This document shows, in pieces, positions 2,317 through 59,900 of a stretch of DNA of 64,000 bases (its first letter is position 1; every line of letters begins with the position of its first letter). This stretch comes from Cycas panzhihuaensis. Its lineage: Eukaryota; Plantae; Cycadophyta. Made by a program: the position numbers and the translations under genes. The DNA lies in assembly GCA_023213395.1 (NCBI GenBank), contig CM041465.1, positions 150,543,741-150,607,740 on the forward strand, written 5' to 3'. The notes beneath the pieces were generated by a model. The model was given only the letters and a program-made list of their open reading frames with translations, was not told the origin of the DNA and ran no database searches.

Positions 2317-4923
2317 TAAAAGTGCGCCTTTGGGGTCATAAAGAACTACTATACACTGGCTATGGGTAGACTTAAAGCATGGGAGCTCAAGTGGTGTATT
2401 GTGATTTTAGCTCACCCTTGAAGAGCATCTATACACCTCATGAGCACTAGTTTAAGGGGCCCACAATATGTGTGTTCCTTTTTTACCTATAGGGTCTAGG
2501 TAGGTAGGTTGGTGATGCATTTAGATAACAAAGAGCTAGGTTTCCTAAGATTATTAAGTGGCATAGGAAGGTTTCTCCTATCCTTAAGAAGGGATGGTTT
2601 TTTTTCTTGCAATAAGGGAAGTGGTGATAAATAGGAAACTGAGGGGAGAAGGAGGGGTTTGGTATGGTTCTTTATTGCTTAAAGTATTCCCTTTGATTAT
2701 GTAAGAAGGCGATGCTCTCTATTTGGATGTTGTACTTTATTTCAAATGCAATGTTTTGGTGTGTCAAAGGTTGTAGTTATGTTGTTACAAGATAAAGCAA
2801 TCAATAACTATAACTAAAAATGCATGATAAATGTAAATCCTCACTCTCAATTCACTCTCTTTATCTTTTGGCACAAAGAACCTTAAAGTTATATACCTAA
2901 AATAAAAGAGTCAATAATGCATTTAAGAGAGGTGTGAAGGAGGAAGGAAGATAAATATTCCTATGTTTATGCAATGTTTATTTTCTTTGATATGTTTTTC
3001 TTTGTTCATGCAAGGAGAAATGTACTCTCTAGGTTAGATTTTTAATTTAATTTTATATGTATATGCAAATGATAAAATAAATTTTTCCTAATATTCCTTT
3101 TCTTTTATGGTGAGAGGGGGAGAAAGAGGTGAGAAGGATCTATTCCTTTCCTTGGTGTGTTTCTCTTTCTTGTGGGTGCAAAAAAAATATGTTTCACAAA
3201 AGTAAATCCTTAACTTTTATCTTGTATATATATGCAAGTGTAAATAATCAAAAGAGAAAACTTGAAAGAAGGTGGTAGCGAGTTTGCTTTGGTTGGGAAC
3301 TTGAGGAACAAGTATTATTAATCAAAAGGAAATAATTATGAGGAAGAGAGGGTTTGGAAGGAGCATACCCAGTTCACAACATCTGATGATGACCTTGACC
3401 TTGCTCTTCCTTATTCCTCTTTTACTAATGTTGAAGGTTCCTTCTTCCACATGAGTTATTGGAGACAATGGGGTCTACTTACCTCCCTAGATCTAACTAG
3501 AAAAATATACAAACAAAGAAAAGAGTAGAGTGAAATGTATATGAGGAAGTAAAATGCTAAACCATAAATTGGTGCTTACCTAAAGATAAGGCTTCATGTT
3601 CTCTTACCAACTATAGAGAGATGTGTCTTCCACCTACATACACAAAGCACTTCCCAAAGGAAATATTGCAACATGTGCATATATGTGTATGTTTCATAAG
3701 ATCCTTTTACCACTAATCAATCAAAGGAAATAAATCAAATATTAATGTTTCCTTTCCAAAGAAATCCAAGCATGCAAAGGGTGTAAGAGATGAGGAGAAG
3801 GGAGTGAAGAGTAGTGCCTCCTCCCTCAATACTTTGAGTATGGTTATGAAAGATTTACAACTCATGTAATTTTTTTTTATCAAAATTTTGAAGAGTTGAT
3901 GGTAGAAAAGCTATAAATTTTGATATTTAAACTAAGAATCAAATAGAAGAGAGTGAAAGTAACTAAAATCATAGCTAAATACCATGGATTCTTATGGAGA
4001 AATAAATATGTACATGTTGCCCCCTTCATGCAAGAGAAACTCATTGTTTATGAAAAAATGGGTGAGGAATAATCCCTTGAGAGAATGCTTTTTGAGAAGA
4101 TTATTGAGTCCTGAAGAGAAAGATAGAGTGCTTGGTCCTTGTAGAAGACAATTTTGAGTGTCTTAGTGTTGGAATCAAACTTCTATTATGTGTTCTTTCT
4201 CAAAACTATGTTGTTCTCTATTTTGTCAAGAAAATGGGCTTGAATAATGAAGAGAATGATGCCTAATTCAAAATGAAAATAGAGTTCTAGGTTTGCCCTA
4301 AGGCATTAGGCATGCCAAGTTGTGTAATTAATGTGGATTTTGAACATTATTAACTGCAATTGGTAAAGTGACAGTCACACCATAAATTTCTTTGTGGTAC
4401 TACAAAAATCTTCACAAGGCACATTAATTAGAGTGGTGGAGGCAATAATCATCATAATGCAGATAACAAACTCTATAGTGTAGAAGAAAGGTATAAAAAT
4501 TAATTGACAGTTAACCAAAGGATGATTAAAGGGGTACTAAATCTTATATCAAACTTCTATAGACTAACTTTGAAGCTCTAAGGTGGTTGGTCACATATTA
4601 AAATATGAGAAAATAAAGTTCATAAGCAATAATAAGTTAAAAGTAAACAAAAACAAAGTTATAGTAACATTGAGAAGTCACCTCATCGATTAGGAGACCA
4701 CATCAAGGGCTTTAAATACCATTAGGCCAAAGTCTTGGTCATCATAGTCGTAAGAATAGACATAAGAAAGCCAGGCAACTCAAGATGTTATGCATCTAAT
4801 GATCATACAAGCATCATACCAAGCATCAAACATAAAGAATGTGATAGGATATGAGATGTAGAAACATACATGCACTTACCTATATTGCAAAATTCCTTAT
4901 CCATTCCTAGTAGTTAGGAAACA
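2317..4923 (-). repeat. Tat1 3' LTR (~2.6 kb)
   Basis: Aligns along its length with 12638-15611. Ends ...GGAAACA next to the PPT TTGCCCCCTT (4924-4933; minus strand AAGGGGGCAA). Confidence 0.9.
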
Positions 4924-5413
4924 TTGCCCCCTTGGCAAAAGAAACTTGCCACTCTAGAGCTAAAATGATGGTGAATGATACTAACACAAGTGTTATTAGT
5001 ACAAACAATAACCAAGAGCTAAATGTATATATAACCAAGGGGTAATGAGTGTCACAATAAATGCATGGATAGTAGGCACATGCTAAGCGGGGAGAAAAGG
5101 TTCAAGACCAAAGTAATCCCACGGCGTGTGACCATGAACCTAAAGCATATGTGGGTCAAATAAGAGAGTGGTGACTAAGGGGGATTCCCTTAGTGGCATA
5201 CCAAATGGGTAGCATGACCCTAAAATAGGGTTCAAAATTTTAGAGAAACCCTTGGGGGGATGAGGGGATGCCCCATCACACCAAGCAAAGATATGAGTCA
5301 GGTAGGTAAATATTTTGGTTGCCATAATTAACCTCATTACTGGCCATTATTCAGAGGTGATGAGAAAGAAAAAGGATAGGGTTACCACTAAGGTCTTTAT
5401 AATGGGAAACCTA

Positions 5414-5842
5414 TTAAGTTGACAAAGAGTCACCTTGAAGTTGAAGGTGATGATCAAGAATAAAGTTAACTAAACTATTGGTCTTAGCATTTTGATTATG
5501 AGGAATATATCAAATATCAACTGAGGAAAAATGGGATAATAAGGATCTAGCTATCATAGACAAAGATCTTAATCTAGGATAAAGGACCCAATAAATTTGG
5601 GTCAATTAGGACATCATGATTTGAGAATCACAGTGTAGGATGATGGGGCTATGATGGAATCAAAATGTGTTAGTTAAGGCTTCAATGATGGCCATGTACT
5701 CTACTTCATTATTCATAGCCTTAGGAAGATACATCTCAAAATGCATAAAATCATGCCTGTAGAGATCACAGATGATCCAGGCTACAATAGAAGTTCCTAG
5801 GTTTCCATGACTACTACCATCAATATAGATGAGTAGTTCCAT
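5414..5842 (-). pseudogene. Tat1 stand-alone cellular/archaeal-type RNase H (aRH)
   Basis: MELLIYIDGSSHGNLG...MNNEVEYMAIIEAL...HCDSQ...HIPHNQNAK, matching the RNase HI catalytic motifs. Confidence 0.85.
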
Positions 5843-7059
5843 TAGGAGAAGAGCAGGTGGAGTCTCAAAAGAGGTAGATAAAAACTTCTCTATAAAGGAA
5901 GGATGGTAGGAAAATAAGTCTAGGCAAGGGACAATAAGTCCTAGAATCATGACCAACATAAATGGCCACTCAACAAGAGGATAGAAGAGCCATATGGCTA
6001 GGCAACTAGGTTTACAAAGGGCCTACCCTATGGAAGGGAAGAGGTGATGGTGAAACAAACTTATCGATTAAGCCCAAGGTTGGTAAGGGATCCACAGGGG
6101 ACTTAATTGGGGGGTGAGATTCTATCAAGTGTAAAACAAGCTAGAATAACTTTAAAAAATAGAATCAATACATCGAAATGAGTCCAAAGAGTATAAACAT
6201 CAAAGGAATTTTAAGCGGGCAAGCTACAAGGGAAAAAGGCTTCCCTTAAAAGGCTAAGAATTATCATTATTACTCATAAAGGTGGAAAAAACGATACCTA
6301 AGAGCCGAAGAGGGCTTAGGCTCTTAAGGAATTAGGAACAAGCTTAAGGAGACAATCCTAACGACTTGATCAAAAGAGGAAGGACATCGAGCCTCGAGGA
6401 GCTTGTTGAATAAAAAAGGGACAAGTGAAGGAAATTAAATTTATTTTTATCTTCACCTATGAGATTTGGATAGAGACTCTCTCTACTACCTTAGTTTCTT
6501 AATTATAGATGAGCTTACTAGAAGAGATAAAACCATTAAATTACTGTGCAGGAGGTGTCATCTAGATCAAGGAGGAGCGATGATAATAGTGAGACTAGAC
6601 CTGGTAGGTGGATCTCAACATTGAACTTTTTATTTGTATCTTTATACTTTATACTTTTTGGTAGTTGGGATGTACCCATTTAGGAGGGAAAGGGCTTAAT
6701 AGCACCCACTTTTAGGCCTGTGAAAGGCTAGACCAAGGTTATGGGGGGCCTTAGTCTTAATGGGCCTAATTTTGGTTAAAAATTTTATCTTTTGATGTTT
6801 ATTTTTTCAATTTTAAGAATTTATTTGTAGGCATCATAGAGTTTTCTATGGTACCACGGATATTATTGTGGTATGACAAAAATTATTGTGGGGCCTACAG
6901 TTTTCTTTATGGTACTATGAAAAAATTTATTATATAGGATAGAAAATAAAAAACTTAGAAAACTTTTAGTTTTGGCTTTAATTATATCTATTTTTAGGTT
7001 TACTAAGAGTGCCTTCTCTTCTATTAGATCATAAATTACTGATTGATTTTTAGGCTATC

Positions 7060-8080
7060 ATGGTAGTGGATAACTATGAGAACATCAGGTCACTGATGTT
7101 GGCCCTTGTAAAGTTTATGGAGGGTGGGGACTGGGAGATTCTAAGATGTTGTGACTTACTAAGGATTGTTGGCTCATATTAGCATGCCTTCGACTAGGCC
7201 TTATTGATATATATCATGTCATATTAGGATCGTTGGCAACACGTATTCCATCTCCCACAGGTGGGAGATCTAACCATCACTTTATCAGATGTATGGAGGA
7301 TCTTGGGAGTCCTAGCTAGCAGGGCACTAACCATGTTAGGAGCATTATCCAGCACTAATGTGGCTTACTAAGAAGTAACCCATCTCTTTTATGGTAGGGG
7401 CCACTAGGATAGGAGGGGAGCATCCATTAGGATAATCATGGTATAATACATTCCTCATGTGAGGAAAATGATCATATTTTCCATTATACTCTAGATTTCT
7501 TGAAAATAAAACTATAGAAACATCCCTAAAGGATGGATGGAGATTATCAAGAGGTGTAACAAGGGGCAAAGATTTAATTGGGTTGCTTTAATAGTGGCCA
7601 ACCTTACTACCCAACTTGACCAGATTTGTGCTATAGGATGGGGTGGATTCTCTTCTTGCTCACTAATATTGTACTAGTTCTTTAATCATTTTTAAGAAGT
7701 AGGACCAGTATTAGGGTCTCAACTCGCATTGACTAGTAGTCCTCTCATTCATCGACAACCATCATGGTTCTAGAGCATAAGAGAGCCCAAGTAGGTGAGG
7801 AGGTTGGTAGCAGCTATATCACTAGGCTTACTCATGCTAAATAACTATGTGAGTCGACCATACTGTACTATCCACTGGGATAATGATGTAAAGGAGGAGG
7901 AGTTTGTAGGGGTCCTAATAGTAGAGTCAAGAGATGATGCTAGTGAGGGAGTGGTAATTGTCAACCCTAAGGTAAACAAGCTATTAACTACTATTGGAGA
8001 GGAGGCCATATTAGCTACAAGAGTGGAGATCTTAGGAGGCAATGAGGAGGTAGCACTAGGGGCACTGGTAGCTTCAAGAG
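7060..8080 (+). pseudogene. Antisense plant mobile domain (PMD, aminotransferase-like/MAIN-like) exon inside Tat1
   Basis: From ATG 7060, in frame: ...ALLIYIMSY*DRWQHVFHLPQVGDLTITLSDVWRILGV, and later QRFNWVALIVANLTTQL. This matches the PMD motifs W..ETHTFHLP.GE.TITL.DV..ILGLP and YSWG.A.LA.LY..L. The early stops are TAG, explicable as CAG/TGG decay. Confidence 0.8.
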
Positions 8081-8232
8081 GTAATCTCCTTTCCTTTTCT
8101 TAGCTACAACTTCCATTCATATCTATTTGATTGAGTGATTTATGATACTGTTATTATTCATTATTATAGATTCTTTTTTTTAATATATATACATACACGT
8201 TGCACTAATATATGGATTTACATGGCTGATAG

Positions 8233-8800
8233 GTAGAGGTATTACAGGGGAGTTGATCAACAAAACCATAGCTAAGTTGTTCCCTCGAGTGTATATGGAG
8301 GGCTATCCTACTATAACAGATAATAGGGAGCCAGGATTAGTATGGCCATATATTACCATATTTTGCCCCATCATTTAGGTCTGAGATATATGGGCTTCAA
8401 AAGCCCAAGAGAGGCATTCAAAGGAGGCCTACTTATAGGTAGAGAGGGACCAACTATAGGCTTGGGTGAGGGATATGGAGACCCAGCCATGACAGAAAGT
8501 GGACCAGGGAGCTTTAGGAGCTAAGATGAGGATTATTTTCCTAGAGAAATAGTTGAAGGGAGTCTAGGAGGAGTGGAATGACCTCTAGGCATGATATGAC
8601 AAGCTTATAGACAAGATGATAGTTAGGTCCTCCTACACACATATAGTGACGCCTTCCCACCGGTGACTATGAGATGAGAGCCACGTTTGTGGTGAGGGGA
8701 GTAAGGCTAGGACCTCACAACAACCTAGGAGGAGCCTTGAGATGACCTAAGAGGAACCTTAGAGAAGCATGGTCCCAAGACCTTAGAGTAGGGCAGTTAA
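8233..8800 (+). pseudogene. Tat1 antisense gene, terminal coiled-coil exon
   Basis: Homologous to 59320-59900 and to 38410-38960 (minus strand); shares an E/R/Q-rich ...YD(K/Q)LID segment. Confidence 0.6.
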
Positions 8801-9179
8801 AGGGCAATGCCCTATGATTACATTTAGATTGGCACATGGGACTTTATATGTGATTTATTTTTAATTAGAGGAAAGGTTATACCTCTAGGGGGTTTCATGC
8901 TATACATGTAGATAATTATACACCCCTTATAAGGATTCTAACTTCTTAGAGTGTATTATATCATTATACCATTTTGCTATATTTGATGATTATATATATA
9001 GAGATAAGGGCCACATTGGTCCTCCCTTTTGATATGGGTTATTCATTTGTTTGATTGTTATGGATATATGGGCACACAAATATATGATATGGATGATTAT
9101 AGATTTTTAATTATATTTTTCACTTTTATTTAGGGCTTAGGGCACATACTAAGAACATATGAGGTAGGGGTTCATCTTA

Positions 9180-12100
9180 GTGAAAACTAGTTCCCTGAAA
9201 AAGATTCCCCAAAAGGGGGAGAGGTTCATTGGGCTCACTATCTTTGGCATCAAAGATAGCTTAGCAAGTAGGAGGAGATGTATAGGAGGATGGACACTCA
9301 TGGTGATAACTTTAACTTATCTTTCATGGACAAACTTAACTTGCCCCTAGCATGAGGAACAAATAACTCCCATTTGATGGAGCCATGGTTGACCCAATGG
9401 GAACTTGTACTTGACATTGATATTAAGCACAACAATGTCTATAAGGATAGTTTTTCCTTCTAGTATAAGGGAGAGGGTAACCATCCCTAAATGGGATTTC
9501 TCACTCCTATTATATCCTTGGAATTTCTAAGGAATGAGCTCGAGAGCTTCTATGCCCAACTTCTCTATCATCTATATAGGCATTGTATTAACTAAGGAAT
9601 TATTATCTATGACACTCCTCTTTATAGTAAAATTAGTAGTATCAATGGTAATGATGAATGGGTAGTACCAAAAGTTTTCTTATTCACTATGAGATGAGAA
9701 ATCTCATGGGTCAAATGAGATGATAGATGGTCTATGGGAGGTGTGCCCATAGTATAGATAGGAGCATCTTGCTAACCATGAGCTTCTCAGGGTAACTCTA
9801 TAGGAAATCTATCATCGAAATGCTTGTGGACACATAGTGTAACTCTTGAAGGATGGAGAAGGCCTTCCCTTTCCCTATGGGTTAGGGAAGAGGCTGCTTA
9901 AAATCATAGCACCAAGGCACACAAGAATGGTCTTTGGAACTATATGATCTTCATTATAAGAGGATCAGTAAGGTGTTGTTATAAGGAAGAGGAGGCTTGC
10001 TTAGCCTCCTTGGAGGCTTAAGACCATGTGATTGGGTGCATGAGAGTGGTCTCAAGCATCTAAATCACTCTCTTCCCCTTATTGTTAGGTTGAGAGGGTG
10101 AGGAGTGACAGGACTTAGGTCTTGACAAAGGAGATAGATCCCTTGGTTTTTTTCCTTTCACTTGATCAGAAGAAGGATTAAGAGATTGCCTATTATTCCT
10201 CGTCCTCCTATTCTAGGTAGGTTGATCCTATTCCTCATGGTTTCAAAAAAGCTCCCTATGAACAGGATGCTCTAGGTTAGGCCTAGAGGCCCTCTTCGAA
10301 GAGACATCACAATGTGGTGAAAGCTCAGAATGTTGCAACCAACATTATGAATCCTCATACAAGCACTCCCTGTGTATATATCATTATTTCTTCTTAGAAG
10401 GAAGTTTTGCATTCCTCCCCTTATAAGATTAGGTAGTTCCACCCCTTATAAGATTGGGTACTTCCACCCTTATAAGGCAAGGTCTGCAATGCTTAGTACA
10501 TAGGGCAATGTGACTCTAAAGAAGCTTAAGAAGGTTGAAGTTTCAATTCTCTATCATATATTTGAAAGAATGCATAACTAAAATGAGGGGATCCATGGTC
10601 CTATCAGTTGTACCAATAGGAGGCATTAGAGATTATTATTGGCTCTTTTGGTCATGCAGGGGAGGAGCTACCTCGTGATGTTATGATTGTTTAAGAGGTT
10701 TCTTAAGACCTACTTAGATCTCAATGGCCTCGAATGTCTAGCATTTAGCTATGGTAGAATCACATGTTATAAACCTCATTTTAAGGACTTCCATGTGTAC
10801 CTCAGGGTAGAGAGCATTGATAAATATCTCTCTTCTCAAGTTATGATTAAGTTCATCATGGCCTCGTTTCAATGATAGGAGTGATTTGACCCCACTTTTA
10901 AAGGGTCAGGCTATATTAAAGTAGTTGACAAACTCATCAACTAACTGCTGGAAAGTAGAAATAGAGTGGGCAAGAAGACAATAGAACCATTTCAATACAT
11001 TTCCTTGTAGGGATCTTGGAAATAGTTTTATTAGGATGTGATCATAGGCCCAATAATTTACACATGCCATGGAGAAGCCACTGACATACTTAATTGGGTC
11101 CTATGAAGAAGTGTCATCAAACTTGGGCACTTTAGGAGGCTAAGGCGACAGGTTGGTCTTGAGAGCCTCGATGGACAAGGGAGTTAATCAATAATCAACA
11201 AAATGATAAATCCCTAGTTGAGTTAACAAATCAACTTGGAAAGTAGAAGGAGATGGGTATGGGTACCCACTCCCGTTGTGTGGAGGGTAAGAAGGATGAC
11301 CATAAGAAGTATACAAGTTCCCACCTAATTGATAGGAAGTGGCTACCTCCATATGAGGATATGCCACATAAGGAGATGGGTGAGAGTGTCTCACCCCACT
11401 ATGATGGTGCATCACATGTATAGTGAAAGTATGTGTATATGCCCCTAGAGGGGAAGTTGCATAGGGGTGTCAAATATGAGGGGGAACAAATCCCTCTTAT
11501 AAAGGAGCTACATATGAAGTGGTACATGTAGTAGGTGGTACCAGATAAGGGATAGAGTTTTTCCTGTATGGTCTACCTATGGGGGATGCAACCCATAGGG
11601 ATGAAGTAGATCCACCCTAGAAGTTGGAAGAGGGTTTGGTATTTGGTCTCCCTGTACCCCCAAGGCTAGAATGTATACCCTAGGGGTGCATAAAGCAAGG
11701 GGTCCACAAGTTATGAATGAGGGTGCATGGGGATGGATCCCCTATGGCCTAGGGCATGGGAATATGAAGGTGCATGAGGTGGAATCAAAAGGGAATGGGT
11801 TACAATTGATTTTGGCATAATTGTTTGGGTAAGAGGTATGCTTAACCCTATTTGGGAGATTAATATATCATAGGGTATCCCTTGAATCAAGGGAGCACTC
11901 GAAGGTGGGGGGACTATAAGAATAGGTCTTGATATCAAAGAGGATATGGATTGAGATGATATGGGAGGAATGAAGATGGAAGAAGACATGGTTATGGTTT
12001 GAAGGAAGTGCTCTAACCACTTAGAAGGTGGTTGGGTACTCACAACTTCAAAACATTACTTGAATGCCTCTACCACATTTCTAGGAGGAGTTCCAGCTTG

Positions 12101-23445: not shown

Positions 23446-23817
23446 GAGAATGTTAAAATATAATAACAACTTCTTTATATTGTAATTCACTTTATATAAT
23501 ATGTTGTAATGTTATATTCCTAGTTGAGGGTATGTAAATACATTTTTTGCTTAATAAGCCAATTGTATTTTACCATTAAGTTAGCCAATTTTATAATTTT
23601 AAGAGTGATATTGAGCCCTATAAATATAGATCATGTCCTCAACCTTATAAGTTTGATTATTCTATTATTGGAATAAAACTCTACTAGAAATACAATAGTA
23701 GGCATCAATTAATTTGGCGTGCCTATTATGTTTACTTAATATTTGCTTTATAGTTTATTTGATCTTTGTTTATGGTATATAAGAGAAAAATATAGATCTT
23801 GAATTTCTTTCATCCTT

Positions 23818-33600: not shown

Positions 33601-36600
33601 GTGACACTCCCTCTAACCTTGGAAGACAAGACCATGAAAATAGACATTGTTGTCTTAGACATCAATGTAGATTACAATTTCTTATTAGGTTAGCCATGGC
33701 TTGACCAAATGGGAGCCATTTACTCATTATAGTAGGTTCAATTTAAATTTACCCACCAAGGGTAAATTAAGGTTATCACTTGAGAGCCACCCATAACTAA
33801 GTGATCCCACTAATGATGCCAAGCAAATTTCAAAGTGGAAGATAGAGAGAAGGACTTATCTGATCCATCTATCATAGGGTTCTTTGAGAATAAAGTACCT
33901 TATAAGGGGGAGGGTCTCCCTTCCCCTTAATCAAACTTAGTAAATTTTACTCTCATTGGTGTTGGGAGCTATGACTATTTCGCTATTTTTAGTAATATGG
34001 AGTTTGATGATGGTTATAGGGAACTACTATAACAAATTTCTTTCCTCAATGTTACGAGGGGGGAGACATCACAAATTAACACACCATCTCTATTTGGCCT
34101 GAACCCCTATATGTCTAGATTACCCCTACCATAAGTTCTCCCTCTCCACCAAGGAAAGAATCTCCCTATATTAGGGCATGGTTATCTCATCACTTGCTCC
34201 AAATTGTGTATAACTAGTATCTTGATCAAGGGGACCCCACCTCTCTCAAGGATGTGATGAGGGGGCACCATCCCTCTCCTTTCATCCAAGCTACCTTCTA
34301 GGGGAGGCTCCTTTGAGGGGTATATAATAGATTAATTGACCATGTATCAGATGCTCCTTTGGTTATCTTCCACATACTATGTACTATTAATTTGCTTAGG
34401 TATGTGGGGGACCAACCAACCATCAAGTGCTCCTCTATAGGGCCTAATTAATAACCATTGACTAGTAATGAGGATAAGGACTTTGAATTAGTCTTCTCTC
34501 ATGATGAGTCCATCATATATGACCTCATGCCCATTTGACATTCCTTAGTCTAAATGAAGGTAAGGCCTATTATGAGGGTATAATCTAGCTTATTTGAAGA
34601 GTTACCTCACTATGTAGACTGACTATTAGATCATTATCAATTTATTGCACCTTTGCATACTCCCCAACCTCCTATAAGTAAGACTATCCATGGGATAGAT
34701 TGCTTTGAGAATGACAAAGACTTGTTGGAATATCTAGTAGGGATCTCCCTTAATCTACCCTCTAGACACCATAAGCTTGAATTCTAGAAGTGTTTGGCCA
34801 TCAACTTCCCCTTAATTGAGCCTAATGAAGTGATCATTCCCCTAAACTACTTATTGACCAAGCTCCTCATTATTTTAAGGAGGGGAATGTATTATGCATG
34901 GGGGTAACTAAGGATATTGTCCTTACCCCTAATAGGAACATTAAGATCAATATTGAATGCTATTCCTAGGAAGTTAGGGAGTACACAAAACTATTCCATG
35001 AGTTTTACAATGTGTTTACATGGGATATCTCTGACATGAAGAGCATCAACCCTAGTATTATCACTCATAATCTTATGACAATTCTAGGTGACCATCCCAT
35101 CTAACAAAAATAACACCCATGTCACCTAAAATTATTAGCTATAGTTAAGGTGGAAGTAGAGAAACTACAAAGTGTAGGTCTCATTACTTTTATTAATGAC
35201 CCAAAATGGGTATCCAATATAGTCCTAATCACTAAAAAGAATGGAACCATTCATATTTGCATTGATTTCATATACATCAATAAGGCATATCCGAAGGATA
35301 ATTTTTTGTTACTATTTATCAATCAAATCATGTATCATATAGTGGGGTTCAAAGTTATGTTCTTAATGGATGGATTCTTAGGATATAACCAAATTTAGAT
35401 TTCCTTTGAGGACCATCACAAAATATCCTTCACTACTACTTGGGGGATATTCACAATCAAGGCAATGCCCTTTAGCTTAAAGAATGTCAAGGTGACCTAC
35501 TAGAGGGCCATGCAGTTCATCTTTCATGACCTCATTAATAAGATTCTTGATGTCTTTATGGATGACCTAATGACCCTCTCTCATAAGAGGGCTAATCACC
35601 CCACAAACCTGAGGAAGGTCTTTACCAAGTGTAAATACCATGTCAACTTAAATTTGCTCAAATGTATTGTTGTGGTAATAGTTATCAATCTCTTAGGTTT
35701 CCTAGTATTATAAGAAGGAATCTAGGTTGACCCAAATAAGGTTAAGGCTATAGTTGAGATATTGCCCCTAAGACATAATAATAAATCAAGTCATTTCTAT
35801 GGAAGTTGGGTTTCTTAAGGTGCATTTTGGCATACTTTATTATTAATGTGAAACTACTAACCAATTTTCTTAAAAAAGGGACTCCATTCATTTGGACCCC
35901 TAAAGACTAAGAGGCCTTTCAAGAGCTTAAGAGAGCTCTGGTCTCCACTCTAATATTAGCCTCTCCATTATTTGATTAGCCTTTTATCCCTTATATATTA
36001 GTAACTGATGAATCTATCATTGATATGCTTGCCCAAGAAGATGACTTTAAGATCAAAAGAGTTATCTACTTCATAAGTTGCACCTTAGTGGTGGATAAAC
36101 TAAACTATCCTCCTACAGAGAAGGAATGCTTAGCATTGGTGTTCACTATCAACATTACCTCCTTAGTAAAACCACATATGTTATAGTCTAATTAGACTTA
36201 TTACATTATTTAAAGACCCAGTTTGATTTGATAGAGAGGACAAGTAAGTGGGCCATCCTTCTATAAGAATACAACCTTAAGTTTGTTAATCAAAAATCAA
36301 AGAAGGGTATGGTTCTAGTTGAGCAACTCACCGATGCACTAGTTACCAACTTTATGAACATCTCAGTTGATGACTCTCTAGCTAATGAACCCCTTCTAGT
36401 GTTGCAATATGTTGCTCCCATATGTTGGTCAATAACGAATTGTATAACAAAATAATTAACAACCTCATGTAGAAAAAATATCCCATAAACACCAGTAAGA
36501 AGGTAAGGTTACATGTACATGCTTCTACTTGATAATGCTTCCTCATAGAGGACATATTATATAAGAGGTTATTTGATGGCAATTTCCTCCATTACATTAA

Positions 36601-37690
36601 CTTGGAGGAGACTGACCAAGTCCTTTATGAATGCCATGATAACATTTGTAGTGGACACTTTAAGGGCCAATCTATGGCCCAATGAATGTTATGCATGGGC
36701 TTCTATTGGCCAACACTATTAAAGGACACAAATATACCAAGTATTACGACAAATACTAAGAGTATGTTGACATGATCCACTAGCCTTCTAAGGTACTACA
36801 CACAATAATGTCATCATGGCCATTCTCCTAATAGGGTCTTAACCTCATTGGGGCCATAACCCCATCATCCTAGGCCCAACATAAGTTCATTCTAAAGGTA
36901 ATAAAATACTTTGCTAAATGGGCCAAGGCTATCCTTCCATCCTTCATGATGAGTAAAATAGTTGTTACTTTCATCTTTCAACATATTATTTGTTAATTCA
37001 GAGTCCTTGGCATCCTCATTATAGACAATGGGAACCCTTCTTATAATAAAGGGATGGATGAGCTTTGCGAGAAATTTAAAATCCCTTATAAAATATCATC
37101 TCCTTATTACCCTTAGGCCAATGGCTAGATCAAGGCTTTTAATAAGACCTTGATCAACATTCTCAAGAAAACCATTACCCAATTCAAATGGGATTGGCAT
37201 CTCTAGCTTCACTTGATCTTATAGACCTATTATATGTCCATCAAGTTGGCCATAGGTATAATGCCATAACAATGGGTATGTTGTCATTCTCCTTGGTTTA
37301 TGAATTGAAAGTAGTGCTACCCCTCAAAGTTGAAATCCCTTCCTTAAGAATTATGTAAATAAAGAATGGCAATGTCAAGCCTGTCTACTTGATCTCAAGG
37401 TGCTATATGAGAAACACATCTGTGCATATCAAGCTAACCTTGCATTTGAGGCTAAAGCCTAAAAGACACATGATAAACATCTCCAATTGCAACCTCTAGT
37501 CCCTAAGGACCCAAGTCCTTAAGGTAGAATACTTATATGATTGCTTATCCAAATTTGGCTCTAAATGGGTGGGCCCTTTCATGGTCATTATAACCCTAAA
37601 TAATGGTGCATGCTAGATTACTATATTAGAAGGCCTCAAGTTCAAAAAGGTCATCAATGGGTAATTCCTTTAGAGGTTCTATAGTTATCC
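30650..37690 (+). pseudogene. Tat4 gag-pol (gag, PR ~33440-33780, RT ~34950-35760, RH ~35950-36350, INT ~36600-37690)
   Basis: EVPKFD, WVSNIVLITKKNG..ICIDF, MDGFLGYNQI, FMDDL (35555), YPPTEKECLAL, CSGHF and PYYP*ANG motifs, in Gypsy order RT-RH-INT. Confidence 0.9.
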
Positions 37691-37729
37691 TCATAACACT
37701 CCAATATAGGGGGTAGCCAATCGATGCTT

Positions 37730-37935: not shown

Positions 37936-38409
37936 CTTGGATGTTGTTACCTCTTCAGAAGGTGCCTCACTAAGGTCCATCTCCTACCATTCTTGGCCAG
38001 TGATCAAATTGACCCCATAATGGGGGCATGTGACTCTTCCATGAGTATAAATTGGTAGATAAATGTATGACATCATTTTATGTGGATGGTATGTGTGTGT
38101 GGTATGTGCAAACTACGATGCTATATATATGTGTGAGAGCTACAACACCATGCACAAGAGTAAATGTTAGGTTAAACATGCATAAAAGTAAGAACATAAA
38201 CATGTTAGGATGATGAAACATATAAGATATATCCACATATTAGGTATAAAAGAGATATTATATTTATATAAACACATACACATACAAAATGAAGAATAAT
38301 ATGGATAGGGATACTACATCCCATGAGGAAGCTGGGACCCTTGCAAGGGTATACAACTATATATATAAACTCGATACCCTTGGAGGCCTAGCTCTCCTCT
38401 ACAAAATAC

Positions 38410-38960
38410 AAAACACAAATGTCCTCCCATACCCTCAAGGGGTGTCATCCCCTAGCTATGGTCTCCTCTACTCTAGGGGTGTCTAAGTATCCCTTAAGCT
38501 TCTCCTTGACCATTATGATAGCCCAACCTCACTATCCTTATCTTGTAGATGACCCTCCTCTCTCTAATGTTGCTTTGTCATCATCATAGTACAAGTCTTA
38601 GAAGAGCAGACCATAATCTACTCTACCAGTTGATCATACCTCTCTTAAAGTTGATCTTTCTCTACCTAATGTCTCAAGTATGGAAATTTGTACCTCTATG
38701 CTAAGATCCATCTATATATGTGCAGTTACAATTCGAGGCACTATCTCTATACCCTGTGCCTCCAACTCCCTGACCTAAGCCTATAGTTAGTCCCTTTCTA
38801 CCTAGAGTTTCCCCCTCTCAACTTGAATCTTGTCCTAGTCTAATCGTAGCCTATGGACCTCTACAACCCACATCTCCCTAGCCCTCAATAAAGGGGCAAA
38901 TGTTGTTATATATGGACATTTTAATGTTGGCTCCTCAATATCCACTATATGAGGCTAGCC
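38410..38960 (-). pseudogene. Tat4 antisense gene, coiled-coil exon (no PMD exon recognisable)
   Basis: The reverse complement matches 59430-59890 (the TTTGCCCC..GAGGG block and ..RYDQL..). Confidence 0.6.
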
Positions 38961-40079
38961 CTTTTCATTTTTAGGTAAGCCTTTTTCATCCTCAAATCAC
39001 CTACCTTATATCCTATTAGGTTTTATAGTCCATGGGACTAGATTTTTTCCCTAATTACTAATTTAGTGCCCATGTTAGCCCTTTATACATAAAATACCAT
39101 CTGACCCTTCATTTCTTATGATTTTTACTACCTTTCCTATTTATTCCCTATGCCTAATTCACATCTCTAGCTCAATTGTTTTTAACCATTTGACAACCTT
39201 TGACCATATTGTTAACTCTTTAGTCATTTATACTACCCCATTATTCACCTTAATGAGCTCTTAGGCACTTTTGACTCCTCCTTATTGGCATATATTCCAT
39301 TTATGTCAAATGATATTTTCCTAGTTGTTGTACCATTCTCCTACCATGATTTCATCTGGGCTTAGGATGGTCATATGTACGACTTGGACAAGGGCACTTA
39401 TGATAATTCCTACATGTGCTTGATCATGGTGGATGCACTCCATGGTCATTAATTGGATGAACTTGCTCTATGCATACCCTATTGTTGATGCTTAGGATTG
39501 TCACATGACTTGCCCTTTTATATCCTATGGTTTAACCTCTTTACTAGGTGTTCATGGCTTGGCATTGGTTATATTCAAATGTTGCATGTTGCTACTATGA
39601 TGACTCTCTTAGCCTCTTTATAGTCTAGCCCACCTTTGCACCTACCTCACACTACTTGGGTATGGATATGTGTATCACCTCTTGAAGCTATTCTTAAAAA
39701 AAAAAAAAAAAGTATAAAATAAGGGTATGTTTTAAGGGTGGGATGCCCACCACCACCTTCTTGGTATTCATGGCAGGTCGCATGATGGCCTTATCCCCAC
39801 CTATGATTTGTAGTTTGGGTTTGACTGAGTGGGTTATTTGGGACTTAGATCTAGTTGTTCAGACCCACCATGGTCTCAATTATGATCAAAACCTACTCAA
39901 CATGGTTATTTCTCTACATGGATTTTAGAGGAGTTTTATAATTTTGGCCTATAGTCATTCCTAAAGACTAAGATCTTTTTATCGTTCTAGCCATACTTAC
40001 ACACATGTTTGATCTCCTTTTATTGTTCATTGACTTTTTCTATTCCCACTATTTAGTGATCATATCATTGTATATCCCC

Positions 40080-40500
40080 ATGGCATTGATCATCCACACT
40101 AATGGGGGTATCCATGGGAATCTAGGGCCTTTTGTTATGGCCTAGATCACTTTGGATCACATTGGGAATAACTTAGTTCAATTTGGAGTTTACCTACCTA
40201 AAACTACTAATAGTGAAGCCGATTACACCACCATTACAGAGGCCTTGACTGATGCACTTTGCTTCTAATATGGATCCATATTTTTATGTTGTGACTCCCA
40301 GATTATCGTATCCCAACTTACCCAAGTTTACTAGATCCTTTGCCTATGGTTAAAGTCTCTATCCACATCTACTATAGCCACACCTACTAGGTCTCTCTTA
40401 GCCCAATTCGCCTCTATTGATATTCATCACATCCCTTATGGACTTAACATCAAAGCTACTAAGTTGGTGAACTTCATCTTAGAACATCATTTACTACTAG
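40080..40500 (+). pseudogene. Tat4 stand-alone aRH
   Basis: MALIIHTNGGIHGNLGP...LPKTTNSEADY..ITEALTDAL...CCDSQIIV...HIPYGLN...ILEHHL*. Confidence 0.85.
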
Positions 40501-40870
40501 TGGACACTGGTGGATGGCTCTCCTTTAGCCTAAGGGGCCACACTTTGAGATATATATCTTAGGAGCATTCCCCTCAGGCTCACCTTTAAGGGGCACCCAC
40601 TGATGAGGTAAAACTATGATGGAAACCTTGAGCATACAAAACCCCTTTCAGAAGCTAAGCCATGTTGTTGAAGCTTCCCATATGCTCTAGCGAAAGCCTA
40701 AACTGCCACTCCAACTCTAAAACAAGGGTAAACTACCATACATATTTGTATATATTTATCTTCCTTTCTATCATTTGTATATTTCCCTTTTTATGAAACC
40801 TTTATTTATGAAAAAAAAAATAGAAAACCATTAAATAATAAAAAATATAAAACGATCAAAAAGTCCATAT

Positions 40871-40872
<2 letters not shown>

Positions 40873-40923: not shown

Positions 40924-40925
<2 letters not shown>

Positions 40926-42680
40926 TAAAAAAAATATAAAATATTAAGAAAACCAAAAAAATCTAACCTCTGAAAGACAACTGCTAATGAGGTAAAAGTA
41001 TAACAACCCACCTCAACTCACTTAGTCTTTCTCTCCCTTGGATATTTGAGGTGTTACATCATGTATTTAAGGGTCTTTGAGCTTCCAAGCCCCATTCTTG
41101 GTCCATGCCACCCACCTTGTCTTACCATGGAGGCAACTCCTCCATTATTTGAACGTTCAAGATTTGTAGCCATTGGCCTTTGGGATTGATATAGTCATAA
41201 ACTTATCATCTCTCTTAGCTTGTGCACCTTTGTGTTAGGTTCCTAGGAGGCTAAACTAAGGGGAATCCCCTTTGATTCATTGCTAATAAGGTACCATTAT
41301 GATAGTCACCACCCCATGTGATTTATACATATTTTATTTTTATTATTTTACATATCACATTATTTGTTTTATTAGCATTCACTGTCTTCTATCTTTAGAT
41401 TGAAGAGGTTTTGTTACTAATGGGGCAATGCCTTTTAGCTTCCAAGAATGGGATTTAGATGCTCGACCGAGTGAGGTAAGTTTAGGTATGTTCTCTACCC
41501 CTCTTCACTCTTTATTTGATTTATATTTAAGATGATGTAGTTAGCACATGCTTGTTTGCTTGCTTATTGGTTAATTCATGTCCCTTTTTACATGCCAATG
41601 ATGATCAAAACATTGGTCCATGGCTTTGATATCCACCCATTGGATTTCTTGGGTTAGAAAAGATGCCTCCCTAACCCCCTGTATCTTGTTTCTTTCAAAT
41701 TGTTGTTTCATTTTTGCTTGTTTGGCATTAGTTGCACCTTTTTACCACATGCTACTAATTGATTTATGCCTTCGGACCTATTATTTATGAGATAATCTAA
41801 TTACATAAAGGAATTGATGGGAAAAATCAACTCTATTACATTACTGATTACTGTTTTAATTGTATTAGTAGCACTATGAAATATTTTATGGTACTACAAA
41901 CATGTTCACAATATGACTATCACCAAACCAGATTTAAGTTTAATGGTGACACTTAGCTCATAAATGAAGACCTATCCATTATGACATTCTATAGTAGTCC
42001 CAAGTTAGTTTATATGTACTTAGAGAGGCTAAATATGCCTCAAACTACACAATTTTTATCCATTTCAAAGTTAGATTCATCAAAGAATGAGCAAGAGTCA
42101 TGGTTTTTGGTTGATAGTTTTCCCCACATTATGGGTAAAAAGCCACCAACCCATAACCTTCTTTTCATCTATAAGTCCTCCCATTTTCCAAAGGAAAAGG
42201 GGAAGACATTTGGACAAGAGTTACTATGTTTTTAGGCTACCAAATGTTTCTTAGAACCCTAGCAATTAGGGGAATCCAACTAGCTACTATTGGGGAAATA
42301 ACAAGTAAGCCATCATAAGCTATAAGGGAGTTCGTAAGGGAGTGATTTCACCAACCATTTGGCACCATTCTCTCATAAGATATAGGTAAACCACTTTTCC
42401 TTTGATTGGGTAAGACTTCTCTCTTGTTTCTTCATCTTATTCATGGTAAACCACTTTTTCTTTACTTGGGTAAGACTTCTCTCTCTTTTCTTTATCTTAT
42501 TCATGCCATGATGTGTGATTCTATGATGGAAGTATGCTAGTAACTTTTCTTGTTATTCATATTTTCCTTTGTTGAGTGAGTCTATTCTCCCTTTGTGCTC
42601 TTTTTTTTGTTCTTAATTGATCTTCTCCAATAAGTTATAAGGTTAGGGAGGTCCCCTAAGTATAACTTAGGAAACCACTC

Positions 42681-54705: not shown

Positions 54706-57668
54706 TGAAACGCTGCCCACGGGGTGGTATCCCTACGTTTAGCAAGAGAATGGATTATGCAAGACTAGGTTGGACTAAACAACAAGGACTCACCTCACAG
54801 GGCATCCGTGCACTGAAGTGCAGATTCGGGACCTACAGAGGTGCCTAGTTGCTTCTAGGTAGTTACAGAAGATGAGACCTTCCTACCCCTCGGATGGCCG
54901 AGAAGAGGAGGAGAGAGCCTGGCAAGTTGCATCTTCTCAAGGGAGTGAGAAGGTAACACGAGAATGAGAATGCACATGTAACATGGTATCTAGGTATAGG
55001 CTTGGCCAAAAGAGCAATGTGCGAGTAGTCCTAGCATGAAATAAACTATCTAAATGTACTAGATTAACCACTAAATAAAAGATATGCAAAGAAGCAAATG
55101 TATGTTCTTTTCCTCTTTTAGTTTCCTATGTGTTTCTTACTACGCAAGCATGTGCATAAAGAACAACACTATAAAGAAAATATGCAAGGATAAGAAAAAT
55201 ACCCAAAACAGCATCTGAATGGAGCGCTACGCATCTCTTTGCTTCCCACTCCTTTCCGCTCCACTTGTTGCACACATGAAATTGATCGGTGATGGATGCC
55301 GTGAACAACTGAAGAGGGGCTAGCTCACCTCCCCAATGTATGCAAGAAGCGAATGACAAATAATGGAAAATAACGAAAAGCAACAAATATGGAACTAACC
55401 TGCAATGGGTTTGTTTCACACGTGACTCCACAAATGCGAGATCCTGCTAATTAAACAAATAAGTATCTCCCTCTCAGAAGAGGGGCCACAAAATAGATCT
55501 AATATGTATACTAAACTTAGAGGAAATAGAATCAAACTAAGCTAAGCATATGCATTATTATTTAATGAAACAACTTTCAACAAAGTTTCCACAAATAGTT
55601 ACCGCAAATGACACCCAAAATAAGAGTATAGCCTCAGAATGGCTAACTCGCCCATGAGAAGTCTCCACTTAGCCTCGAGAAAGGAAAACAAACTCACAGC
55701 AAGAACATGGGGCAATGAATAATGAGAAGGAAAAAGGTAACTAAAAGGTATGCAAGCACCCAAAGAACAAGATGCTATGGACAACAAATTATCTAACTGG
55801 ATGGATTGTAAACTGTTAACTGGTAAGAAGCAGTTTTGGGGCTTATGCGATGCCCAAAACCAACAAACAAAAATCTAAAACCCGCTTGGCAACAGGCTAC
55901 CAATGCTGATTTAGATCCGAAAGTGAGCTTCTAAATTCCCTAACCCAACTTCTAGAAAGACACAAAGGTGCAAAGGAAGAGAAAGTAAGGGACAGAACCC
56001 TTGGGGAGAAGGTAAGCAAGGGGGACTGAACCTGCCTTCTTCCCTCTAACTTCCTCTATATTACCCCCTTACAACAGCCACCTAAACGCAGGCTGGTAGG
56101 AATGATGGGAGAGCACTATGGTCCATAAATCTAGACATCTAGTAATAAACTAAGCAATGGAATCAAGAAAGCAAATAAAATAAATATTTATTTGCTAAAA
56201 AACTATAAAAAGTAGCATAAAGCATGAAGTAAACAAGTAAGGTACCTTGTAGGGAGGAGAAGAAGTATGCATCTATTGGAAAATAGAAGGAAAAAACCAG
56301 CATCCAGTAAGATTTGGTGGCAAGTTTAGAAGAGGAGACAAATATATAAAAAATCCTATTTGTTGGGGCCCTTTGAAGCTTGTGTTTTTTGGGAGTCCTT
56401 GAAAAAATATCCTCCTTGTAGCTTTGAAGACCTGTAAATAGATGTTGAGCTTGTTGTTCCTCAGCATAAGAGACAGCAATGGCCTCTGGTAAAGAGCAGC
56501 AGCTGTGAGTCTTATTCTGTAGTAGTTTTCTGTGGAAGATTTTGTAGAGTTCTTTGTAAAAAATGAGCTAAGAATCCTTGAAAATGAAGAGGAAGTTTAG
56601 TTTTATCCCCTACTCACTGTAAGTGAACATTGGGGATGCTAGGACAGTTCAAATACATAAGTGCCACGTGGCAGTTTTATGAAAAAAATAGAAATTATCG
56701 CGTGATTTAAAAAAAAAAATTGAAACAGTCATACCACAGTAAACTTCACGGCACTATGACAAAGATCGCGGTACTGCTAAGTTTACAGTGGTACGAACCT
56801 GGAAATAAAAAATAAGCAAAAACTAGAGTTTGGAGTAAAACAGAGAGAAAATGAAGGCTAGAAACAGTTAGGGGGAGTACCCAGGTGATGGATAAGTAGC
56901 CAGGAAAGTGAACTAGGTCTCAACTAAGGATTCAATCAGACTTGGAAGAGACTGTAACATGAAGAGGGTGTCGTAAAAAGGGCGAACACGACTGGCCGAG
57001 GCATCCCAAGGGGCCGTGGAGACGAAGTGGGTGGTTGTGCGCCATATTGGGTATAACATTTACTAGAGAATAGCCCCACTGTGAGTCGTCATAGGCTGAA
57101 AGACGTGTGGTAAGCACATGCAAAGTGATCAAACAGGAAGATAATGTAAACATACAGATGTTAGGCAAGCATGTATAAGGTAGTCTACACTAAACAATCT
57201 TAGTTAAACAGGAGTGAAGCGAGAAGCCGAAATGTATACCTAAACTTACCCAAGTCGATGCGTCTCAAGTCCATTCCCAGTAGCTGGGAAACACTACCCC
57301 CTTGGCAGCAGATCCTCACTACTCAGAAGCGTGCTGTGATGGTGAATGCTGACAACTAAAAACCCTCAGTAGCACATGCATATATATATATATATAAACA
57401 AACACGAATAACATATGGCCCAAGGATGTCAGCGAGTGTCATGACAGAACGCGTGGATAAGGGAGATAGAGACGAGGACAACATAGGGGTTGCCTACGTG
57501 TCGTCTAAATGTCGACCTACAAGTGAGTAGAGCCAATGAAGGGGATGCCCCTATTGCCAAAGTGCAACAAGTGATAGGAAGGTACCCAGTAAACTGAACA
57601 AGCACATCAGACTAAAGGGGACCAGAGACTTGGGCACGAGCTGGCTAGGCAAGCCTTAAAGGCGTTCG

Positions 57669-58078
57669 CTAAGAAGAGGGAGGTGATGCTCAAGGATGAG
57701 GCAGACGAGGTTGTCTGCCTCAACATTGAGGTCCCGAGGGATATGCTGAATATCAACTAATGAAAAGCGGGCCAAGAGGGATCTGGTAACTGAAGCAAGG
57801 GTTCTCAAGTGAGGGCATCACACCTAGTAAACCTGGGTGAGATAAGACACCACAACCTGAGAATCGCAGAGCAACACGATGGGTTCATGATAGAAACAGA
57901 GAGCATCAGTAAGGGCCTCAATAGCGGCCATGTATTTGACTTCGTTATTGGTTGCCTCAGGGAGGAAAATCCTAAAACGTAGGAAATCGTGTCCAGAGGG
58001 GCTACAAAGGATCCAAGCAGTGACAGAAGGTCCAGGGTTACTATAGCTTCCATCGTCGGTAAATATGTAGAGGGACAT
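57669..58078 (-). pseudogene. Tat5 stand-alone aRH
   Basis: MSLYIFTDDGSYSNPGP...ATNNEVKYMAAIEAL...CDSQVVV...HIPRDLNVEADNLV...HHLPSS*, with one internal stop and a frameshift. Confidence 0.9.
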
Positions 58079-58602: not shown

Positions 58603-58611
58603 CTATATAAG
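58603..58611 (+). promoter_or_regulatory. Candidate TATA box of the antisense gene
   Basis: CTATATAAG upstream of a donor-like GTGAGT (~58796). An equivalent TATAAAAGGG is at 39513-39522 (minus strand) and a degenerate copy at ~6408. Confidence 0.45.
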
Positions 58612-59319
58612 GAAATTTGTATGGAAAATGGATTCATTTTCACCAGCTCTCATGAGAAACCAGAGCCATTTCCTTACACAGCGGAGCATCGCCCGACTTT
58701 GGAGGCACACGGGGGATGATCTGACCATTGGATTGGAGTGCAGCAAGAGCCAGCGAGACCATTAAGATGAGATGGCGATGGCCAGGCTAGATCCAGTGAG
58801 TGGATCTCGCAAAACCCTCCCCATTTCAAAGTTTTAATTTCATTACTTTTTGAAGTTTTTTGTGTAATTTTTGTGCCTCTTATGGGCAATTGGAGGCCTC
58901 TCGGAGTCTAAATTAGACCTAGAAAGAGGTAAGACCTGGGCATTAGGGAGCCCTGGTCTTGGTGGGCCTCACAGGGTCCATCAAAAGATTTTTTTTTTAT
59001 TTATTTTTAGGGCAGAAACCCCCCTTCTTAGGGGGGTTGCCATTCGTACCACGCCAATGATCGCGGTGCTATGCTCATTGCCACAAGGCCCCAATCGCCA
59101 CAGGACCCATGCTAAACTTAACAGTACTGCTAAGTTTAGCGTGATACGAAGCTGAAAATTAGAAAAAAGAATATGAGGGGCCTTAAGGCCCCAAATCTCA
59201 GGTAAATAGAGCTGAGAGTCATGGAGGAGCATAGATGACTGGTAGGAGACTAACTTTGATTGATTTTATCATGGTATGCAGTGGGATATATACTGACACA
59301 TGGCATGTTACATTGGTAG

Positions 59320-59900
59320 GTACTGCAGAGGTCAGGAGACTGGTAGAGACCATGGTGAGGGAGATGTTCCCTTAGGTGTATGCAGAGGGGCAACCACCTA
59401 TCCAGGCAGAGGATGTGCCTAGATTGGTAGGTGCTCATATGGAGGCATTTGCCCCATTGGCGAGGGTGAGAGACATCTGGGCTGTAGAGTCCCAAGAGCA
59501 TATGACATTCGGGGGACAGATGCAGCGGGAGCTAGATGAGGCCCGGGGCGAGTGAGACGCACTTTATAGATAGGTCCAGGCTCTAAAGGCTCAAGGCAGA
59601 GCAGGTGGAGACACAGGAAGCACGGTCTGGATAGCAGTGCTGGAGGAGCATCTTTGAGGAGTAGAGGGAGAGAGGGATCATATCTAGGCCAGATACGATC
59701 AACTCATAGACTAGGTGGCGTCGAGGTCAAGTAGGAGCAGGACATACACCCATACAGCAGTTACGACCCCAAGATGGCCACATGACGAGGGGAGCAAGGC
59801 AGGGAGCTCGCGGAGGCCAAGGAGGAGCCTCAGAGGGATGTGGTCCCCAGGAGAGGGATCACACAGGCCCAAAGATGGTACTCTAGGAGTGGGGCAGTAG
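59320..59900 (+). pseudogene. Tat5 antisense gene, coiled-coil exon
   Basis: QMQRELDEARGE*DALYR*VQALKAQ...VLEEHL*GVEGERDHI..RYDQLID, a heptad-like pattern. The stops are explicable as CGA/CAG decay. Confidence 0.65.

What the first reader, a model, noticed from the sequence alone, without database searches (positions are those of the whole stretch)
4924..8800. Divergent two-gene accessory cassette (aRH head-to-head with an antisense PMD/coiled-coil gene) at the 3' end of a Tat-like family
Seen: three diverged copies (Tat1 4924-8800, Tat4 38410-41428, Tat5 57294-59900) share one layout: pol end, antisense gene, spacer with TATA-like box, independent RNase H ORF, PPT, LTR. The two genes point away from each other. 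Established: Tat elements carry an extra archaeal-type RNase H, some Gypsy elements carry antisense 3' ORFs including PMD, and the host PMD proteins MAIN/MAIL1 act on chromatin and silencing. Inference: a complex-retrovirus-like accessory module driven by an internal bidirectional promoter, supplying RNase H outside the polyprotein plus a possible regulator or anti-silencing factor. I cannot tell whether this exact combination is already described.
Basis: partly seen in the sequence, partly recalled or inferred. Interest (0 to 1): 0.82.

Follow-up and report, generated by a model that had tools for sequence, protein, structure and literature searches.

The report
TatIII retrotransposon with standalone RNase H
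These are three decayed copies of a plant jumping gene, likely of a known conifer-type lineage, in which an extra RNase H gene with its own start codon sits back to back with an antisense accessory gene; both parts are already described for that lineage, and the shared two-way promoter is untested.

Summary
The layout is real in three diverged LTR-retrotransposon copies: antisense gene, non-coding spacer, separate archaeal-type RNase H (aRH), PPT, LTR. aRH hits PF13456 in 3 of 3 copies, starts at an aligned ATG in 3 of 3, and shows gag-like purifying selection (pN/pS 0.38-0.39). Corrections: the PMD part is in Tat1 only (1 of 3); Tat4 and Tat5 keep only the coiled-coil part. Tat1 and Tat5 lack RT-RH-INT, so the order after integrase is shown by Tat4 alone. 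The TATA box is a consensus match only in Tat5 and points towards the antisense gene, not towards aRH. The combination of post-integrase aRH and an antisense 3' PMD ORF is published for gymnosperm Tat lineage III (TatIII; Tat H/I, structure #3), and aRH as a separate ORF was published in 2023. Possibly new details: the antisense gene lies between integrase and aRH, so aRH cannot be a simple Pol extension here; a coiled-coil part; predicted introns; a multi-copy PMD-less form. Whether aRH mRNA comes from an internal promoter or from splicing is untested.

The parts
2317..4923 (-). Tat1 3' LTR (pairs with the 5' LTR 12638-15611, which carries a ~320-bp insertion; 85.8% identity, K2P 0.16; flanking 5-mers match at 4 of 5 bases)
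4924..4939 (-). Tat1 polypurine tract
5414..5842 (-). Tat1 aRH gene, own ATG at 5842, one frame, 3 internal stops
   Evidence: PF13456 E 2e-10
5843..6579 (.). Tat1 non-coding spacer, collinear with Tat5's; 65% pyrimidine on the aRH strand; no TATAWAW match
6580..6603 (+). Tat1 candidate first exon of the antisense gene (ATG plus 7 codons, then a GT donor-like site); predicted, no RNA evidence
7054..8080 (+). Tat1 PMD-coding part of the antisense gene (PMD about 7060-7700) plus linker; AG acceptor-like site at 7052 in frame with the candidate first exon
8199..8810 (+). Tat1 coiled-coil part of the antisense gene, after an AT-rich (22% GC) intron-like stretch at 8100-8199
9280..11301 (-). Tat1 gag and protease-like regions; RT, RH and INT absent
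35350..37690 (+). Tat4 RT, native RH and integrase, with no aRH inside pol (ends approximate)
38403..38990 (-). Tat4 coiled-coil part of the antisense gene; no PMD part
40080..40520 (+). Tat4 aRH gene, own ATG at 40080
   Evidence: PF13456 E 1.9e-6
41413..41428 (+). Tat4 polypurine tract; 3' LTR starts at 41429
57294..57309 (-). Tat5 polypurine tract; 3' LTR starts at 57293
57656..58078 (-). Tat5 aRH gene, own ATG at 58078, 2 internal stops
   Evidence: PF13456 E 4.2e-14
58604..58611 (+). Tat5 TATA-like box facing the antisense gene
58772..58795 (+). Tat5 candidate first exon (8 codons, GT donor-like site at 58796), aligned with Tat1's; predicted
59271..59900 (+). Tat5 coiled-coil part of the antisense gene; PMD part absent
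60697..63740 (-). Tat5 gag, protease and N-terminal stub of RT; rest of pol absent

Best explanation
These are decayed copies of a likely TatIII (post-integrase aRH) Ty3/gypsy retrotransposon in which aRH is a separate gene that would be made as a free ~140-residue RNase H and likely supplies the activity in trans to the element's reverse transcriptase, while the back-to-back antisense gene is a predicted spliced accessory gene with a likely promoter of its own. Shown: gene order, orientation, aligned ATG, purifying selection on aRH, a non-coding spacer, PMD homology in Tat1, absence of PMD in Tat4 and Tat5. Inferred: aRH needs a subgenomic mRNA ending in the 3' LTR. I put about 40% on an internal TATA-less promoter in the spacer, about 35% on splicing from the LTR-driven RNA to an acceptor just upstream of the ATG, and the rest on other routes. 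Inferred: the antisense protein is a nuclear regulator, and its PMD part is dispensable for amplification in some subfamilies.
For: aRH ATG aligned in 3 of 3 copies, 7 codons before the first catalytic position. The ~520-570 bases upstream show no coding signal in any sense frame (pN/pS 0.97-1.15) and shift frame repeatedly between Tat1 and Tat5. aRH pN/pS is 0.38-0.39 (95% CI 0.30-0.52) in 3 of 3 pairs, like gag (0.32) and protease (0.35); third-position identity is 0.39-0.46 against 0.77-0.79 at second positions. Closest solved structures are RNase HI proteins 4e19, 3u3g, 4h8k and Rv2228c (E 2e-14 to 4e-9). Tat4 has RT, RH and INT without aRH, and an opposite-strand gene lies in the 2.4 kb between INT and aRH. 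The Tat1 PMD frame has 8 relatives at E up to 0.001; 4 of the 8 hit PF10536 (E 1e-4, 3e-5, 4e-24, 4e-31). The coiled-coil part has an open natural relative in the same frame (P0012, 61% identity, E 4e-38). TatIII traits in REXdb are a 5-bp TSD, 12.7-17.3 kb and eORF-3'R in 18%; Tat1 has a 4-of-5 5-bp TSD and spans 13.3 kb. Precedent for an internal antisense promoter: maize Grande gene23.
Against: No RT phylogeny against reference Tat lineages could be run. No transcript, start site or splice junction was observed. No copy keeps all aRH active-site positions, though each position is kept in at least one copy. Selection on the coiled-coil part is weak (pN/pS 0.60, 0.72, 0.80; one CI includes 1), and the opposite-strand frame scores alike (0.66), so this test does not fix its strand. 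Tat1's own Pfam PMD match is only E 0.19, below the cut-off. Decay of the native RH active site could not be shown. The three pairs come from three copies and are not independent.
Confidence: 0.7

Rival explanations
1. One internal bidirectional promoter drives both genes as a co-regulated accessory cassette.
For: Head-to-head layout with about 700 bases between the candidate start codons (694 in Tat5, 738 in Tat1); the spacer stays collinear between Tat1 and Tat5 without coding signal.
Against: TATA-like motifs face the antisense gene only; none on the aRH strand in Tat1 or Tat5. Tat4's spacer has about 330 extra bases and lacks the candidate first exon.
Confidence: 0.3
2. aRH is translated from a spliced subgenomic RNA made from the 5' LTR promoter, as env is in retroviruses; the spacer is a promoter only for the antisense gene.
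For: The aRH strand of the spacer is 60-66% pyrimidine, and AG dinucleotides after pyrimidine runs lie shortly upstream of the ATG in all three copies (sequence). Splicing of env-like 3' ORFs in plant elements is known (title of Vicient 2001 seen in a reference list; paper not read).
Against: The acceptor position is not clearly homologous in the three copies. Pyrimidine richness also fits a plant TATA-less promoter (own knowledge).
Confidence: 0.3
3. aRH is the C-terminus of Pol, as drawn for lineage III in 2015, reached by read-through, frameshift or a Pol-aRH splice.
For: Ustyantsev 2015 places aRH at the C-terminus of putative Pol, and the 2026 paper calls the matter controversial. A splice cannot be excluded from DNA.
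Against: 2.4 kb with 45-51 stops per frame and an opposite-strand gene separate INT from aRH in Tat4 (stops alone are weak evidence in decayed DNA). The ATG is conserved and the upstream sequence is non-coding.
Confidence: 0.1
4. Both genes are captured passengers with no role in transposition.
For: All ORFs here are broken; PMD was lost in 2 of 3 copies.
Against: aRH selection matches that of gag; aRH is kept in 3 of 3 copies at about 62% nucleotide identity.
Confidence: 0.05

Closest known systems
Tat lineage III / REXdb TatIII / Tat H-I, structure #3 (post-integrase aRH) of gymnosperms (PMC4408406, PMC6317226, PMC10508981, PMC13468544)
   Same: aRH after integrase; aRH in a separate ORF (2023); antisense 3' extra ORF with PMD (2015); 5-bp TSD; size range.
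   Different: In the texts I read, the order INT, antisense gene, aRH (head-to-head) is not stated, and lineage III is said to have PMD without a coiled coil. Here a coiled-coil part follows PMD, introns are predicted, and PMD-less copies are common. I could not see Fig. 2B of the 2015 paper, which may show the order.
Ogre (Tat IV/V) PMD-coiled-coil extra ORFs
   Same: PMD plus coiled coil, antisense at the 3' end in lineage V; 431 3'R PMD hits in Ogre.
   Different: Ogre has aRH inside Pol between RH and INT; Tat4 does not.
Retand/Grande antisense gene23
   Same: Antisense accessory gene in the long 3' region with its own upstream promoter; tandem repeats; non-autonomous members.
   Different: Tr28 domain instead of PMD; aRH inside Pol; angiosperms.
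Arabidopsis MAIN/MAIL1 (PMD-C)
   Same: Share the PMD family.
   Different: Host genes of another PMD clade; Gypsy-encoded PMDs of angiosperms are clade A; an anti-silencing role was only speculated, for MULE-captured PMDs.

Membership tests
TatIII (Tat H/I, structure #3) | aRH located after integrase | tested here: met
   Tat4: RT, RH, INT hits at 35.3-37.2 kb and PF13456 at about 40.1-40.5 kb on the same strand
TatIII (Tat H/I, structure #3) | No aRH between PR and RT or between RH and INT | tested here: met
   No PF13456 or PF00075 hit in the three + frames of 31701-37700; decayed sequence lowers sensitivity
TatIII (Tat H/I, structure #3) | RT clusters with Tat H/I | not testable with these tools
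   No reference Tat RT set was on hand; the REXdb FASTA supplement is too large to read
TatIII (Tat H/I, structure #3) | 5-bp target-site duplication | tested here: met
   Tat1 flanks match at 4 of 5 bases; not determined for Tat4 or Tat5
TatIII (Tat H/I, structure #3) | Size 12.7-17.3 kb | tested here: met
   Tat1 13.3 kb despite lacking most of pol; Tat4 about 15.3 kb (28266-41428 plus one 2.1-kb LTR) (range)
TatIII (Tat H/I, structure #3) | PBS for tRNA-Arg or tRNA-His | tested here: inconclusive
   A TGG-starting PBS, 17 of 18 bases alike in Tat1 and Tat4, follows the 5' LTR; no tRNA reference was compared, and likeness to Arg primers is recalled only
TatIII (Tat H/I, structure #3) | Antisense 3' extra ORF with PMD | tested here: met
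   Met in Tat1 through relatives; PMD absent in Tat4 and Tat5
TatIII (Tat H/I, structure #3) | Gymnosperm host | tested here: inconclusive
   Host not known; one weak PMD hit is a Ginkgo protein (E 9.8e-4), another an angiosperm protein (E 6e-5)
TatIII (Tat H/I, structure #3) | Native RH degenerated to a tether | tested here: inconclusive
   Only weak alignments to solved RT/RH; the copy is decayed
Archaeal-type RNase HI (aRH) | DEDD core plus active-site arginine | tested here: inconclusive
   Each position is kept in at least one copy; no copy keeps all
Ogre / Retand | aRH inside Pol between RH and INT | tested here: not met
   Tat4 RH runs on to the integrase zinc finger with no aRH
Bidirectional internal promoter cassette | Divergent transcription start sites in the spacer | not testable with these tools
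   No stranded RNA reads were available

The most novel reading that the evidence does not exclude
TatIII elements carry a head-to-head two-gene module driven from one internal promoter region. It makes RNase H as a free trans-acting subunit of reverse transcription, together with a spliced PMD/coiled-coil regulator, and PMD-less or pol-deleted derivatives keep amplifying with the RNase H gene on board. This would be the first mechanism for how a retroelement uses RNase H outside Pol.
Probability: 0.3. Interest if true: 0.65.

Novelty: new member of a known kind. Interest (0 to 1): 0.38.

Why it matters
Biryukov and Ustyantsev (2023) leave open how aRH could work from a separate ORF, and a 2026 paper still calls its status controversial. 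This family shows an antisense gene between integrase and aRH, a conserved aRH start codon and gag-level selection. That argues for a stand-alone gene and names the ~700-base region where its promoter or splice acceptor should lie. It is a useful refinement of a known lineage, not a new system.

Tried and rejected
No whole genome is held, so no genome-wide copy set. The search for homologous proteins with Tat5 aRH: 0 of 11 candidates passed. The search for related loci: viral contigs gave 0 loci; metagenome contigs gave 25 loci at 27-38% identity, none with other retrotransposon parts (48 tblastx hits in aRH, 1 elsewhere at 25% identity), so no independent full element was obtained. Sequencing runs: no RNA holder listed. 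Run X24 (RNA only by guess) laid 63 contigs, none at 99% or more, and says nothing on expression. The RAD-seq run X21 laid 67 reads, all under 95% alike. The coiled-coil part did not align with the PMD/coiled-coil protein P0009 (best E 0.45). The Atlas search of P0012 gave only generic coiled-coil look-alikes with low recognition. Pfam found no family for the coiled-coil part. An N-terminal coding extension of aRH was rejected. Whether Tat5's pol deletion is family-wide was not resolved; Tat1 and Tat5 break at different places. Earlier findings of this scan: none relevant. Literature searches found no paper stating the head-to-head order or a promoter for TatIII aRH; figures, subscription papers and REXdb Additional files 1 and 3 were not seen.

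Full report
What the window holds. The window is a nest of old LTR retrotransposons with almost no long ORFs. Self-comparison shows Tat1 on the minus strand with LTRs at 2317-4923 and 12638-15611 (85.8% identity, K2P 0.16), Tat4 on the plus strand (5' LTR from 28266, 3' LTR from 41429) and Tat5 on the minus strand (3' LTR from 57293, 5' end outside the window). No whole genome was available.

Checking the layout. The aRH segment, the distal part of the antisense gene and the PPT/LTR start are homologous and collinear in all three copies. aRH hits PF13456 in 3 of 3 copies, and its best solved relatives are RNase HI proteins 4e19, 3u3g, 4h8k and Rv2228c. First, the PMD part exists only in Tat1: 6870-8140 has no match in Tat5 or Tat4. 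Second, only Tat4 keeps RT, RH and integrase; Tat1 breaks off after protease and Tat5 early in RT. Third, a TATAWAW box is found in Tat5 at 58604 facing the antisense gene (chance 0.16), not in Tat1, and only near chance level in Tat4; none faces aRH in Tat1 or Tat5. A second TATAAA-like motif is conserved between Tat1 and Tat5 further upstream and also faces the antisense gene.

aRH is a separate, selected gene. A methionine aligns in 3 of 3 copies at the start of the domain. Upstream, Tat1 and Tat5 are collinear but non-coding (pN/pS 0.97-1.15 in the three sense frames, many frame shifts). Within aRH, pN/pS is 0.38, 0.39 and 0.39 (CI 0.30-0.52), against 0.32 for gag, 0.35 for protease and 0.84-0.95 for the spacer. 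Corrected dN/dS is 0.15-0.18 but near saturation. The three pairs are not independent, and the signal reflects the ancestral active lineages, not these dead copies. In Tat4, 2.4 kb containing an opposite-strand gene separate integrase from aRH. No copy keeps the full active site; each position is kept in at least one copy.

The antisense gene. Tat1 7060-7770 scores only E 0.19 against PF10536, but a search of 1.84 billion representatives returned 8 relatives; 4 of the 8 hit PMD, one of them (P0005, PMD E 4e-24) aligning over residues 26-213. The relatives align in one frame along the whole domain. The distal part has heptad-like stretches by a crude score and one open natural relative at 61% identity among 359 candidates. 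Its pN/pS is 0.60, 0.72 and 0.80, the last with a CI that includes 1, and the opposite-strand frame gives 0.66, so selection there is weaker and does not fix the strand. From sequence alone I predict three exons in Tat1: an 8-codon exon with a GT donor-like site that is conserved in Tat5, an AG acceptor-like site at 7052 in frame with it, and an AT-rich second intron near 8100-8199. This is inference without RNA. The Tat5 family is highly repeated: 141,000-165,000 contigs per run lay on 9.4 kb in three DNA runs from three studies. Across the stretch where Tat5 lacks PMD (59100-59420), 3,120-6,247 contigs per run were laid, all 30 bins were covered, and the longest pieces differ from the window copy at about 10-15% of bases. 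This points to a multi-copy PMD-less form, although the listed pieces have only about 20 bases on the upstream side of the presumed junction, short of the tool's 31-base standard for bridging. In run X24 two contigs leave the Tat5 sequence at 59267, about where Tat1 has its PMD part; what they continue into was not tested.

Mechanism. The most likely reading is that Pol supplies RT with a degenerate native RH (published for all aRH-bearing Tat structures; not shown here), and that aRH is made as a free protein from a subgenomic RNA and acts in trans. An internal TATA-less promoter (about 40%) and splicing from the LTR transcript (about 35%) both fit the pyrimidine-rich spacer. The antisense gene likely has its own TATA promoter, as maize Grande gene23 has its own upstream promoter. 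A regulatory role is analogy; anti-silencing is speculation even in the MAIL1 paper, and loss of PMD from amplified copies weakens it as an essential function.

Comparison with what is known. Ustyantsev 2015 (PMC4408406; passages, section 6 whole, supplement legends; figures not seen) reports that gymnosperm lineage III has aRH at the C-terminus of putative Pol and an antisense 3' ORF with PMD, with a coiled coil added in lineages IV and V. Biryukov 2023 (PMC10508981; whole text, supplement passages) places aRH of structure #3 in a separate ORF in conifers, Cycas and Ginkgo and asks how it could function; its text says 'upstream of pol' but its table annotates INT before aRH. The 2026 paper (PMC13468544; passages) calls the ORF status controversial. 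REXdb (PMC6317226; passages, Additional file 5 whole) gives TatIII a 5-bp TSD, 12.7-17.3 kb and eORF-3'R in 18% of 39 elements; its per-element files were too large to read and may bear on the order. PMC7264820, PMC11963269, PMC8775202 and PMC5418596 were read as passages. Six searches found no text stating the head-to-head order or an aRH promoter.

Verdict. A real feature, and most likely a member of TatIII (RT phylogeny untested). The two ingredients are published for that lineage. The order of the genes, the coiled-coil part, the predicted introns and the PMD-less form are refinements that make an open question testable. Interest 0.38.

Noticed in passing
window 59930-60010, 8866-8950, 38320-38402: A homologous non-coding motif just past the end of the antisense gene can fold into a long stem in all three copies; 6 of 18 consensus pairs show changes on both sides. 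Folding z is -4.0/-5.2 in Tat4 and -2.0/-2.7 in Tat5, but -0.1/-0.9 in Tat1. Only three sequences; could be a packaging or 3'-end signal.
   Followed up: partly
window 9150-9300 and 60697: Tat1 and Tat5 lack RT-RH-INT through different deletions but keep gag, protease, aRH and the antisense gene; whether these are amplified non-autonomous subfamilies is open.
   Followed up: partly
window 59271-59900: In Tat5 an ATG in the same local context as Tat1's PMD ATG at 7060 lies in frame with the coiled-coil part, so the PMD-less form may still have had an open gene.
   Followed up: partly
window 60339-60692: Two copies of a 175-bp tandem repeat directly after the pol end in Tat5; joints in DNA runs suggest variable unit number. 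Retand elements have similar arrays.
   Followed up: no
window about 4870, 57245 and 41475: A splice-donor-like GGTAAGT motif is conserved about 45-55 bases into the LTR on the element's sense strand in all three copies.
   Followed up: no
window 25619-28107: An older LTR-like copy (about 68% identity) lies directly before Tat4's 5' LTR, and Tat4's 3' LTR is split by a ~6.6-kb insertion at about 42993-49584.
   Followed up: no
window 51740-54657: A further gag-protease fragment of the same family (about 71% identical to Tat4), apparently cut off by Tat5's LTR.
   Followed up: no
window 17017-17385 and 23453-23813: A 369-bp direct repeat at 80% identity, possibly the LTRs of an unrelated element.
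   Followed up: no
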